From IMG/VR virus record IMGVR_UViG_2690316346_000009: a stretch of 15,179 nt of DNA. One strand, 5' to 3'. This document shows positions 6,001 through 9,000 of this stretch, in pieces (the stretch's first letter is position 1; each line of letters starts with the position of its first letter). The DNA comes from a virus (lineage: Duplodnaviria; Heunggongvirae; Uroviricota; Caudoviricetes). The position numbers are program-made.

Positions 6001-9000
6001 AACAGGAGGGACAGCTGATAGAAACAGAAGCCACTGGAGCACCTCAAAAACACCATCATACACTAAATCAGTAAGTTGGNNNNNNNNNNNGCATTTAATG
6101 CATCTGTGGCATTTTCAATGGTGCACCGTAACGAAATATCAAAATGTCCAAGCATTGCCAGTAACAAACCGATATTCCCCATATCAATGCGCATGGCCTT
6201 TTCGTCATAGTCCTCATTTTCTGACGCATGCCACATCAGGCTACCAATTGACGCAACAGCCATTGATATATTGTCAGTAGCCCCATCCGCAGCGGAATAA
6301 ACCTTTTTAGCAATATCATGCTCACAGTTAAAATGCGGATTAATCAGGTACTGGTAATTTGACATATCAGGCATGGCACACCCCCTGACGAATACGGGCG
6401 GCGAATACCATCACGCAGCCAGCCGGGGATTGCTGGCGTGCTTCCTGTTCGCTGGTGGCCACGATGTGAATCACGCGCGGTTGTGCGGTGCTCAGGGCGA
6501 TAAAACGCCAGATGTATTTATTCAGGTTGTACGAGTCCCGCCCTTGCGGGTGTATGGTATGATTTCTCATAGCTGCCTCGATAATCTTGCTATCGTTGGT
6601 GGTTAGAAGCCCCGTTACTGCTCCTACAGTGCGGGGTTTCGTCGTTTCTGCACCTTGCATTAACAAGGTGTAAGTAACTTTATTTATAGGTGGCTTACAT
6701 GTCAATGCTTTTATGTAAGACTTTTTATTTGTATATTGTCTTACACTTTCATTGAGAGGATTACAGATGGCTACAGGTTCAAAAAACGCAAAATCACAAT
6801 CACTGACAGCTCGGATCCCGCATGATGTTATTGAAGGCATGGAATCCGTAAAACTGGACGGTGAAAGCAACGCCGGATTCATAGTAACCGCCATGCGCGG
6901 TGAAATCGCCCGCCGCCAGGCAGAAGGAAGCGGAGAAAACCTCCTGGTTTCTTCGCTCGATGCCCTAGCGCAGGTGGAAAAAATCGGAGTCAAAGCCGCC
7001 GAGGAGATCGGGCAACTCGTCACCGTCGCGCGTGAAGAACTCCAGCGACGCAAGGTCAAAGAGCAGGAATAGCCACTATCAGCGCCATAGTTTGAGGAAC
7101 GCAGGCGCATTGCTTTACAGGACAGCACCATGAGCGACACAGAATCAACCAAAACACCATCACCAACTCGTAAGAGACGACGCAAAAATATAGCGCATGA
7201 ACATGAATCAGAAAGATTCGCACCTTGTTCGTTTGCTCTTGAGAAATTCCTTAAAGAGCACAGGAAAAAGCTCTCGTTGCAAACCTTGGAACGAACCAAA
7301 TCTGACTGATCACATTGCCCACCAGCCGCAAATGTGGCATTGTTGGCGATGCGTTCAAGTTTAGTGTGTATCCATTGGCGACCGCCCCCGGTCGCCTTTG
7401 TTTTATATGTCATATGCTCCCCTTTACGCTGCCTTACCTGAATTAACGCGGTCACGGCTTTGCACCCAGTCCATAACTTCGGAAAGCAACCAGCCTACAG
7501 AACGCCCCCCAAGATTACGGCGAGACGGAAAGCCCCCTTTCTTCTCCAGTTCGTAGCGTGTAGTACGGCTGACGCCTGTTAACTTACGACATTCATCCTC
7601 ACGAATTACGCGATCTGTTAGTGATTGAAATTGTGTATTTTGATTCATAAAAACACCCTCGAACGTAACCGAACAAGGGCATCTTATTTACCATAGCAGT
7701 TGGTGCAATATTGGAAAAATAAACTTTATTCTAATTTATCGTTCTCCATGATTAATTTTCATTAGATAAAATTTTTCTTATTTTTTCTAAAGAATCGCTG
7801 CGCATTATTTTTTCTAAGAAGGGTTTTACAGTCTGAGCAATAGCAAAGGTGTCCTTTTCACCATCAGGATACAAAGATACGGCAAGCACCCCTAATGAAA
7901 TTTTTCTATCTGTAGACAACTCCCAAGATAATAAGTCAATTAATGGGATTATCTTATAATCAATAATTTTACGTCGTATGCTCTCCCAACTTCCTGCAAT
8001 TGGTTTGTCTGGCTCAACAATTGAAAGTTCACTACGCCATTTTGGTAATAGTTTTGTAAACGCTTCAATCAACTCATCATCTCTGTTATGTAGTAAGTCA
8101 ACAGAAACAAGCATATTATCTAATGTATCAGAAAGGAGATTCACTGGTTCACGCATCACAGCCCAAAACATCCCATTATCTTCTGATATTAAACTTCCAA
8201 CCATCTCATTATCTATGATGATTGGTTTATCCTTCCAATATCCTCTTTCCGCAGTCAGTTTATTAATCATTGATATATCAAATCTTGTTACAGGTTTAAT
8301 TCCATCATCATAACTTAGCTCAATTAACTTCGGTTGCACTTTATGGTCATATTCTTTTTGTTTATCACAAAACCAATCGTCTTCTTTCAGCTCTCCAAAT
8401 GGATCCCCGTAATTATTATGCAACGGGTATTCAGCACCAAACATAAATCCATATTCAGGCATCTCAGAATGTTTCATTGTTAAATCATCTTGTCGCCAAT
8501 ATAATTGGCGAAATAGATCTTTATCCGACAAGTTTTCTAGGCAATCATATTTGCCTAAATCAAATGACTTTGGTAAATCTTTTTTACTATTTACTTTTTT
8601 CGTCATTGTATCCCTCTCAATATCACAATATTTTCATTATATCCTGCAATCATATCAAGACGCTCAACCCATAGATTCAGTGCGTCCCGTTTCGCCTGCA
8701 AATAGCGTGAATGGTTATAGGTTTTTTGCTGACCTGGCATCTGATGCGCTGTGATGTGCTCCACGATATGCGGATCGACACCTAAATCATTCAGCATAGT
8801 TGTAAACGTGTGTCGGAAATCATGCAGCGTCCAGTGTTCCTGCTTAAGCCGCTTATGCGCATTTCGTCCATATTGCGCCACCGTGGTATCTTTTTTCAGT
8901 TCGCCGAGTAATAACCCAGTGTGTGCGTTTTGCTCCACCAGCTTCTGAATGAACGGCAAAATACCATCAGGAATAGGTCGGAATATTGTTACCTTCGTTT

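What the first reader, a model, noticed from the sequence alone, without database searches (positions are those of the whole stretch)
7752..8606. AT-rich 284 aa gene of unknown function fused by ATGA coupling to the integrase: candidate cargo, possibly a defence or anti-defence gene
The gene sits between int and alpA, its start overlaps the int stop, and its base composition is visibly more AT-rich than the rest of the element, which suggests a separately acquired cargo gene. Module A has no counterpart. I recognise no enzymatic motif in the protein. Integrase-adjacent slots in phage satellites and PICI-like islands often carry anti-phage or accessory genes, so this is the most plausible place in the window for an undescribed function.
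Basis: inference. Interest (0 to 1): 0.7.

Follow-up and report, generated by a model that had tools for sequence, protein, structure and literature searches.

The report
DUF6387 gene between integrase and alpA
The gene is real and belongs to DUF6387, a large named protein family of unknown function that always sits just upstream of the alpA regulator in this class of mobile islands; it is an exchangeable accessory gene, and nothing found here shows that it defends against phages.

Summary
A 284-aa ORF (7752-8606, minus strand) starts in an ATGA overlap with the integrase stop. It has 33.5% GC against 48% for int and alpA.

It is not undescribed. It matches Pfam DUF6387 (E 3e-31) and RefSeq already annotates it as such. 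The family has about 1,259 clusters at 50% identity, and no function is known.

In about 55 loci from several genera and marine metagenomes, DUF6387 lies directly upstream of alpA on the same strand wherever downstream sequence is held. The elements include PICIs, capsid-forming PICIs and ROD21-like (EARL) islands. In Enterobacterales it is nearly always coupled to a P4-type integrase by a 4-nt overlap. It is AT-rich relative to its neighbours in all but one lineage checked, so AT-richness is a family trait, not a sign of recent arrival.

The slot is nevertheless polymorphic. It is empty in all six sampled related E. coli islands. An island with a 94%-identical int at the same site holds an unrelated AT-rich gene. 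DUF6387 alleles are shuffled relative to int and alpA.

PADLOC, PDB and viral-structure searches gave no significant match. The family is absent from true phage genomes.

My best guess, with low confidence, is an island-dedicated modulator of the AlpA switch. An anti-phage cargo role is nearly as likely.

The parts
7752..8606 (-). DUF6387 family protein gene, 284 aa, acidic (pI 4.97), predicted all-alpha. The N-terminal (~1-60) and C-terminal (~166-284) segments are conserved; the middle (~61-165) is variable and rich in indels.
   Evidence: ORF and translation. Pfam PF19924 at 109 bits against a cut-off of 28.9, covering 2-252 of 258 profile positions. AF2 model with pLDDT 80.5. Conservation profile over 191 sequences. 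pI. dN/dS 0.2-0.3.
8603..8606 (-). ATGA overlap: the DUF6387 start codon overlaps the int stop codon (translational coupling).
   Evidence: Read directly from the sequence. The same 4-nt overlap is found in L002, L007, L010, L012-L014, L021 and nearly all IMG/VR loci that hold upstream sequence. The unrelated PKF4 slot gene has it too.
8603..9823 (-). P4-type tyrosine integrase, 406 aa.
   Evidence: Translation. RefSeq annotates the identical region as a tyrosine-type recombinase/integrase. Integrases of homologous loci carry Arm-DNA-bind_3 and Phage_integrase domains.
7424..7648 (-). alpA (AlpA-family regulator / recombination directionality factor), 74 aa. It is the invariable downstream neighbour of DUF6387.
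   Evidence: Translation. AlpA alignment A3. Phage_AlpA Pfam hits in homologous loci.
7649..7681 (-). Conserved hairpin plus U-run ending at the alpA ATG. The 5' arm is 7681-7674, the 3' arm is 7661-7654 and the T-run is 7653-7649. The SD-like GAGGG (7660-7656) lies in the 3' arm. I read it as the terminator/insulator of the int-DUF6387 transcript, and as occluding the alpA ribosome-binding site on read-through RNA.
   Evidence: RNA fold of 7640-7751, z = -2.9. Hairpins in orthologous loci. 96.9% of cells paired, 3 pairs with compensatory changes, slid controls 37-56% paired with none in six of seven slid registers. Absent from empty-slot islands. The function is inferred.
7681..7708 (-). Candidate alpA promoter: TTGCAC (7708-7703), 16-nt spacer, TAAGAT (7686-7681). 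It would start transcription at about 7674, at the end of the hairpin's 5' arm, so alpA mRNA made from it could not form the hairpin.
   Evidence: Read from the sequence. A -10-like element sits next to the hairpin in all aligned loci. This is inference only; the consensus scan did not list it.
7679..8621 (-). Exchangeable cassette as defined against strain PKF4. It holds the last ~6 int codons, the slot gene and 73 nt of spacer.
   Evidence: blastn of the window against L019. Homology at 94% runs from 10400 to 8622, and at 85% resumes from 7678 downward.
9824..10011 (-). Island end on the int side (int upstream region and attachment-site side). Chromosomal homology with K-12 starts at 10012, inside the thiM leader.
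   Evidence: blastn against K-12 locus L064. Sub-threshold TPP riboswitch hit at 9956-10061.

Best explanation
Shown: the gene is a member of the DUF6387 family. It is an accessory, exchangeable cassette at the int-alpA junction of mobile islands that use an integrase (P4-type in the Enterobacterales and marine loci) and an AlpA-family regulator/RDF.

Inferred from anatomy: it is made together with Int from the integrated, quiescent island, through the ATGA coupling. Its transcript is kept out of alpA by a conserved hairpin and U-run that ends at the alpA start codon.

Inferred, low confidence: the protein serves the island itself rather than the host. I propose it modulates the AlpA switch. 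It would be an acidic, non-DNA-binding partner that holds down basal AlpA activity, or otherwise sets the threshold of the self-activating alpA loop. The island would then excise or induce only when alpA transcription is strongly boosted, for example by a helper phage. The conserved N- and C-terminal core would carry the common activity, and the variable middle would carry lineage-specific input.
For: - Family membership.
- Invariant synteny: DUF6387 lies directly upstream of alpA on the same strand in every locus with downstream sequence. These are the window, L001-L017, L021, L027-L031 and 31 of 31 IMG/VR loci. It also holds in ICEKp258.2 and a Serratia island (PMC10763509, PMC9964261).
- The synteny survives three different architectures: int-DUF-alpA; late genes-DUF-alpA with int at the far end in Pasteurellaceae; and DUF-alpA at the island end in EARL islands.
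- EARL papers say the RDF 'is accompanied by an 843 bp gene of unknown function' in most islands (PMC6035254).
- The family is confined to such islands. Two of 50,697 phage records match, and neither looks like a true phage. Four of 72,556 plasmid records match. The two I inspected are embedded DUF6387-alpA islands, a third overlaps an integrase, and the fourth is a 4.8-Mb record.
- The protein is acidic (pI 4.97), whereas AlpA is rich in arginine and lysine.
- No operator-like repeats are found in DUF6387 cassette spacers.
- Insulating hairpin with covariation.
- Published gap: helper phages switch on alpA by an unknown route, and no repressor is known in Gram-negative PICIs (PMC6092414). In ROD21, int and RDF expression do not explain excision (PMC8844411).
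Against: - There is no direct evidence of any interaction or regulatory effect.
- DUF6387 identity does not co-vary with AlpA or Int identity (rho 0.25 and 0.19, against 0.74 for int versus alpA).
- Islands with an empty slot are common, and published relatives are fully inducible, so the gene is dispensable (PMC6092414).
- Presence/absence polymorphism, replacement by an unrelated gene, allele shuffling, tandem paralogs and AT-richness are all typical of arms-race cargo.
- Family-wide invariant polar residues (R38, D176, R191, Y20, Y217, D224, T259) could equally mark an enzyme or ligand site.
Confidence: 0.35

Rival explanations
1. Anti-phage or exclusion cargo. The protein would be a single-gene interference factor expressed with int from the integrated island. 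It would block some phages or rival satellites by binding a phage component through its variable middle region.
For: - The slot is the 5' accessory region, where PICIs are reported to carry immune systems (PMC11364771 section 6; PMC10085698 section 17).
- The slot is empty, filled with DUF6387, or filled with an unrelated AT-rich gene in closely related islands.
- Alleles are shuffled relative to the flanking genes. Mean identity is 49%, against 66% for int and 58% for alpA.
- The middle is variable and indel-rich.
- Tandem paralogs at 33% identity occur in two unrelated lineages.
- Single proteins with no known domain can act this way, for example Tai (PMC11364771).
Against: - No PADLOC match for six family members.
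- The family never appears in phages, in defence islands, or in plasmids outside int/alpA islands, unlike known defence genes.
- The gene accompanies the RDF in most EARL islands, which are mobilisable islands, not phage satellites (PMC6035254; the ICEKp258.2 gene table in PMC10763509).
- dN/dS is 0.2-0.3, with no sign of positive selection at the resolution used.
Confidence: 0.3
2. Establishment or anti-defence factor. Int must be made as soon as the island enters a new cell. A protein coupled to it, acidic like DNA-mimic anti-restriction proteins, could protect the incoming DNA from host defences.
For: - Translational coupling to int (and orthologs).
- Acidic protein with net charge about -12.
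- In EARL islands the gene sits next to the attachment site, so in the excised circle it flanks attP opposite int (gene table in PMC10763509).
- It is an accessory, fast-evolving gene.
Against: - In Pasteurellaceae islands the gene is far from int but still next to alpA.
- At 284 aa it is larger, and at pI ~5 less acidic, than classic DNA mimics (from my own knowledge).
- No fold or sequence similarity to any solved structure was found in the PDB.
Confidence: 0.12
3. Classical DNA-binding repressor of alpA, a Gram-negative counterpart of SaPI Stl. It would bind operators in the spacer upstream of alpA.
For: - Position directly upstream of the alpA promoter region, with the cassette carrying its own 73-nt spacer.
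- The unrelated PKF4 slot gene has an HTH-like N-terminus (read by eye, not statistically supported). It also has two perfect GTGATATCAC palindromes 21 bp apart in its spacer, so the slot can hold regulators.
Against: - Both conserved halves are acidic: pI 5.7 (N-terminal) and 5.5 (C-terminal).
- No Pfam HTH domain.
- No repeated palindromes in DUF6387 spacers of six loci.
- hhalign against AlpA is negative.
Confidence: 0.08
4. The ORF is incidental. The AT-rich block would act only as DNA, for example as an H-NS-bound silencer between int and alpA.
For: The GC deficit is seen in almost all lineages, and also in the unrelated PKF4 cassette.
Against: - The reading frame stays intact in every locus examined at 25-100% identity.
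- dN/dS is 0.2-0.3.
- Invariant residues run across 191 sequences.
- The structure prediction is confident.
Confidence: 0.02

Closest known systems
Pfam DUF6387 (PF19924), including the '843 bp gene of unknown function' next to the RDF of ROD21-like (EARL) islands (probably SEN1999 in ROD21; KPNJ2_RS09320 in ICEKp258.2)
   Same: Full-length match well above the Pfam threshold. Same size (about 280 aa). Same position directly upstream of an AlpA-family gene.
   Different: Here, and in other Enterobacterales satellites, the gene follows int with a 4-nt overlap. In EARL islands it lies at the far end of the island. No member has a known function. The equation with SEN1999 is my inference from size and position; I did not check the sequence.
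Accessory/immune genes at the 5' end of PICIs (Fillol-Salom et al. 2022, as cited in PMC11364771) and the antiviral hotspots of P4-like satellites
   Same: Same kind of slot beside the integrase. Presence/absence and replacement polymorphism. AT-rich single genes.
   Different: No match to known defence models in PADLOC. Unlike known defence genes, the family is restricted to one genomic neighbourhood. I could not read the 2022 paper or run DefenseFinder, so identity with one of its hypothetical-protein systems is untested.
SaPI Stl / PICI Rpr master repressors
   Same: Island-specific, highly divergent genes lying between int and the induction module, and expressed in the quiescent state. They are a possible functional analogue.
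   Different: No recognisable HTH domain, an acidic protein, and transcription in the same direction as the regulator rather than divergently. Gram-negative PICIs work through the activator AlpA. Not a member.
YfjH of E. coli K-12 CP4-57 (the gene between intA and alpA)
   Same: Occupies the int-alpA interval of an island with a P4-type integrase.
   Different: It lies on the opposite strand and shows no detectable homology (hhalign probability 0.3%).

Membership tests
Pfam DUF6387 (PF19924) | Score above the curated gathering threshold over most of the profile | tested here: met
   109.2 bits against a cut-off of 28.9. Residues 3-272 match profile positions 2-252 of 258.
Pfam DUF6387 (PF19924) | Family-wide conserved residues present (P12, F15, Y20, R38, D176, R191, Y217, D224, L225, W228, P247, T259) | tested here: met
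   All are present in the window protein. Conservation is 89-100% over 191 aligned sequences.
PICI / capsid-forming PICI (as the host element) | int, alpA and a primase-type replication gene in one orientation; capsid and packaging genes in cf-PICIs | tested here: met
   The window holds int, alpA and primase-like ORFs. The same int-DUF6387-alpA in E. coli SMS-3-5 heads an island with primase, SSB, capsid, protease, portal, HNH, TerS and TerL. In the window the island is interrupted by IS1 and scaffold gaps.
Known anti-phage defence systems (PADLOC-DB v2) | Match to a model of a known or candidate defence protein | tested here: not met
   No family at E <= 10 for the window protein. None at E <= 1 for four other DUF6387 members and the PKF4 slot protein.
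Known anti-phage defence systems (DefenseFinder, including PICI-derived systems) | Match to DefenseFinder models | not testable with these tools
   DefenseFinder models are not available here, and the source paper (Cell 2022) is not held.
Stl/Rpr-type master repressors | N-terminal HTH DNA-binding domain and cognate operators at the regulated promoter | tested here: not met
AlpA / excisionase HTH_17 family | Profile similarity to AlpA homologs | tested here: not met
   hhalign of A2 against A3 gives probability 0.1%.

The most novel reading that the evidence does not exclude
DUF6387 is the missing control element of AlpA-type islands. It would be an island-encoded anti-activator or sensor that gates AlpA, and so would explain how PICIs, capsid-forming PICIs and ROD21-like islands stay silent until a phage or stress signal arrives. 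The variable middle region and the tandem paralogs would tune which signal is read.
Probability: 0.2. Interest if true: 0.75.

Novelty: new member of a known kind. Interest (0 to 1): 0.4.

Why it matters
AlpA is the master switch of Gram-negative phage satellites and the directionality factor of ROD21-like pathogenicity islands. How that switch is held off and then triggered is still unknown (PMC6092414, PMC8844411).

DUF6387 is a large family (about 1,259 clusters at 50% identity). It is found only next to alpA, and nobody has tested it. That makes it an obvious and cheap target for deletion and expression experiments.

If it turns out to be a phage-interference gene instead, it would add a single-gene system confined to satellites. 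Either way, this copy is one ordinary member of the family, not a unique feature of this window.

Tried and rejected
- NCBIfam: no match.
- PHROGs: only a family of unknown function.
- PDB sequence search with the family profile: no match.
- Foldseek against viral structures and the PDB: nothing significant.
- The AlphaFold database library was not available.
- The C-terminal half folded alone gave a poor model (pLDDT 59). I did not use it for fold search. It suggests that the conserved N- and C-terminal parts form one domain.
- Homology to K-12 YfjH, to AlpA and to the PKF4 slot protein: all negative. The PKF4 protein's N-terminus aligns to the AlpA HTH, but without statistical support.
- A profile search with the broad alignment A2 added almost no new database proteins. 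A2 was also too divergent for the locus scan.
- A first automatic consensus fold of the alpA leader failed because my coordinates were out of register. It was redone by hand.
- The consensus promoter/terminator scan did not flag the hairpin or a promoter, so the promoter assignment is mine.
- Rfam: no family for the int-alpA region.
- Literature searches for the protein accession, the Pfam number and the locus tag found nothing. Only two papers name DUF6387, both in gene tables.

Full report
**1. The observation.** The minus strand carries an ATG-started ORF at 7752..8606 that encodes 284 aa. Its ATG overlaps the TGA of the upstream integrase gene (8603..9823), read as ...caATGAcg.... An AlpA-family gene follows at 7424..7648. 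The gene has 33.5% GC and a GC3 of 26%. int has 48.3% GC (GC3 52%), alpA has 48.4%, and the window as a whole has 46.4%. All descriptive points of the finding are correct.

The flanks are E. coli/Shigella chromosome: rcnR, rcnA, rcnB, yehA and yehB. The exact protein is on record as 'DUF6387 family protein [Shigella sonnei] / MULTISPECIES Enterobacteriaceae', seen on 733 contigs.

**2. What the gene is.**
- It matches Pfam DUF6387 (PF19924) over its full length: E 3e-31, 109 bits against a cut-off of 28.9.
- It matches nothing in NCBIfam or PADLOC. In PHROGs it matches only a family of unknown function.
- A profile of 42 homologs found 1,259 representatives at E <= 0.001 in a library clustered at 50% identity. 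Most of the best 150 are 245-345 aa long, and none is long enough to carry an added domain.
- Across 191 aligned sequences the N-terminal ~40 residues and the C-terminal ~110 residues are conserved. Residues ~41-165 are variable and full of indels.
- Family-wide invariant or near-invariant residues include P12, F15, Y20, R38, D176, R191, Y217, D224, L225, W228, P247 and T259.
- The protein is acidic, with pI 4.97.
- Ortholog pairs give dN/dS of 0.20-0.32, so this is a functional coding gene.

**3. Structure.** An AlphaFold2 model built with the alignment is all-alpha. Mean pLDDT is 80.5, highest at the two conserved ends.
- Foldseek against the PDB and against viral models gave nothing significant.
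- A profile search of PDB sequences gave nothing.
- The C-terminal half modelled alone was poor (pLDDT 59). This suggests that the two conserved ends pack into one domain, with the variable middle as an insert.
- No known fold can be assigned.

**4. Genomic context: invariant synteny with alpA.**
- In E. coli SMS-3-5 the same int-DUF6387-alpA triplet heads a capsid-forming PICI. That island carries primase, SSB, capsid, protease, portal, connector, HNH, TerS and TerL.
- Homologs at 38-70% identity sit in the same order, with the same 4-nt overlap with int. They come from Citrobacter, Morganella, Enterobacter, Yersinia, Tenebrionibacter and a second E. coli lineage. They use different chromosomal sites and different satellite backbones. 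In Providencia the order is the same, but a 2-nt gap replaces the overlap.
- Neptunomonas and marine metagenome contigs, at 20-35% identity, keep int-DUF6387-AlpA/HTH_17.
- In all 31 IMG/VR loci with downstream sequence the gene is followed by alpA. Wherever upstream sequence exists in the Enterobacterales-type loci, int precedes it with a 1-4-nt overlap.
- In Pasteurellaceae islands int lies at the other end, but DUF6387 still directly precedes alpA.
- The same holds in ROD21-like (EARL) islands embedded in two 'plasmid' records, in ICEKp258.2 (PMC10763509, Table 1) and in a Serratia island (PMC9964261).
- The EARL literature states that the RDF gene 'is accompanied by an 843 bp gene of unknown function' in most islands (PMC6035254). 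By size and position this is the same family, probably SEN1999 in ROD21. I did not check that sequence.
- The family is essentially absent from phage genomes: 2 of 50,697 records match, and neither looks like a true phage (one is a 1.8-kb fragment, the other a 501-kb Salmonella contig).
- It is rare in plasmid records: 4 of 72,556 match. The two I inspected are embedded EARL-like islands. A third is a 17-kb Klebsiella record where the match overlaps an integrase. The fourth is a 4.8-Mb record.

**5. The slot is nevertheless polymorphic.**
- Only 55 of 5,426 complete E. coli genomes carry a detectable copy: 50 at >=99% and 5 at ~71% nucleotide identity. Related integrases occur in 1,252 genomes.
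- Six sampled islands with ~70%-identical integrases, including an O157:H7 island, have int followed by 365-420 bp of non-coding DNA and then alpA.
- Strain PKF4 has an island at the same site with a 94%-identical int. Its slot holds an unrelated 239-aa gene (hhalign probability 0.2%) that is equally AT-rich (33.8% GC) and equally ATGA-coupled. Homology between the two islands ends 19 nt before the int stop (window 8622) and resumes 30 nt before the alpA ATG (window 7678). That alternative family occurs in 65 E. coli genomes.
- Across nine loci, Int and AlpA identities co-vary (Spearman 0.74). DUF6387 identity follows neither (0.19 and 0.25). For example, L002 against L010 gives int 86%, alpA 87% and DUF6387 43%. 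The window against L010 gives int 54%, alpA 62% and DUF6387 71%.
- Two unrelated lineages carry two tandem paralogs at ~33% identity.
- The GC deficit relative to neighbours is found in almost every lineage. It is therefore a property of the family, not a mark of recent arrival in this island.

**6. The boundary with alpA.**
- Directly before the alpA ATG lies a hairpin followed by a T-run (window 7681-7649). A GAGGG Shine-Dalgarno-like element sits in its 3' arm.
- In eight Enterobacterales loci, including PKF4, 96.9% of positions pair and three pairs show compensatory changes. Shifted registers pair at 37-56%, and only one of six shows any compensatory change.
- Morganellaceae, Neptunomonas and marine loci have analogous stems. 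Empty-slot islands do not.
- I infer that this is the terminator of the int-slot-gene transcript, and that it also hides the alpA ribosome-binding site on read-through RNA.
- A -10-like element (TAAGAT, 7686-7681) abuts the stem in all aligned loci. Transcripts started from it would lack the 5' arm and so escape the hairpin. This part is inference, and the consensus scan did not flag these sites.

**7. Interpretation.** Three parts of the interpretation fail.
- The gene is not an undescribed one.
- Its AT-richness and coupling to int are ancient family traits.
- Nothing identifies it as a defence gene.

Two lines of evidence pull in opposite directions.
- Polymorphism, allele shuffling, a variable middle and tandem paralogs look like arms-race cargo.
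- Exclusive and invariant linkage to alpA, across satellites and non-satellite islands, looks like a function tied to the island's own switch.

Published work leaves room for the second reading. No repressor is known for Gram-negative PICIs, and the route by which helpers switch on alpA is unknown (PMC6092414). In ROD21, int and RDF expression do not explain excision (PMC8844411).

I therefore rank the explanations as follows.
- An island-dedicated modulator of the AlpA switch comes first. This would be an acidic, protein-binding anti-activator or threshold setter made together with Int (0.35).
- Phage-interference cargo comes a close second (0.30).
- An establishment or anti-defence factor (0.12), a classical repressor (0.08) and a non-coding role (0.02) are less likely.

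None of these was tested directly.

**8. Novelty and interest.** This copy is an ordinary member of a named family of unknown function, in a known accessory position of a known kind of element. What may be useful is the family-level picture assembled here: strict alpA linkage, cassette exchange and the insulating hairpin. It makes DUF6387 a well-defined experimental target.

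Noticed in passing
window 7649-7681 (minus strand); orthologous positions in L002, L010, L012-L014, L019, L021: A conserved hairpin plus U-run ends exactly at the alpA start codon, with the likely Shine-Dalgarno sequence in its 3' arm. Compensatory base changes support it. It is missing from islands whose int-alpA slot is empty. No Rfam family matches it.
   Followed up: partly
L019 (E. coli PKF4) 7218-7964: The alternative slot gene (239 aa, AT-rich, ATGA-coupled to a 94%-identical int) has an HTH-like N-terminus. 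It is followed by two perfect GTGATATCAC palindromes 21 bp apart, just upstream of alpA, which looks like a repressor with its operators. Relatives occur in 65 E. coli genomes, mostly as variants in which only part of the gene still aligns.
   Followed up: partly
window 9956-10061 and the junction at 10011/10012: Homology with the K-12 chromosome begins at 10012, about 80 bp upstream of where thiM starts in K-12, inside the thiM leader. A sub-threshold TPP riboswitch hit spans the junction. The island seems to be inserted into the thiM riboswitch region.
   Followed up: partly
window 1-7650 (N at 1990; N-run 6080-6090; 400-699 = 1991-2290; 3673-5190 versus 6091-7616; IS1 ends at 5322-5372 and 15129-15179): The window looks like a scaffold of repeat-bounded contigs. 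It contains an exact 300-nt duplicate 1,591 nt apart, two alpA-to-primase modules at 78-96% identity separated by IS1 and a gap, and an IS1 end at the window edge. The absence of int and DUF6387 beside module A may be an assembly or IS1 effect.
   Followed up: partly
L011 (Providencia) 6007-7684; L029/L030 (marine metagenome) 1619-3330: Two DUF6387 paralogs lie in tandem between int and alpA, about 33% identical to each other, in two unrelated lineages.
   Followed up: partly
plasmid record CP018459.1 (Klebsiella pneumoniae, 16,971 bp), match at 8362-9201: A 17-kb record deposited as a plasmid carries an integrase and a DUF6387 gene that is 71% identical to the window protein. By its size it may be an excised circular capsid-forming PICI rather than a plasmid.
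   Followed up: no
L012 versus L014 (two Yersinia species): Synonymous divergence is 1.1 for int but only 0.33 for DUF6387 and 0.20 for alpA. This points to a recombination breakpoint between int and the DUF6387-alpA pair.
   Followed up: no
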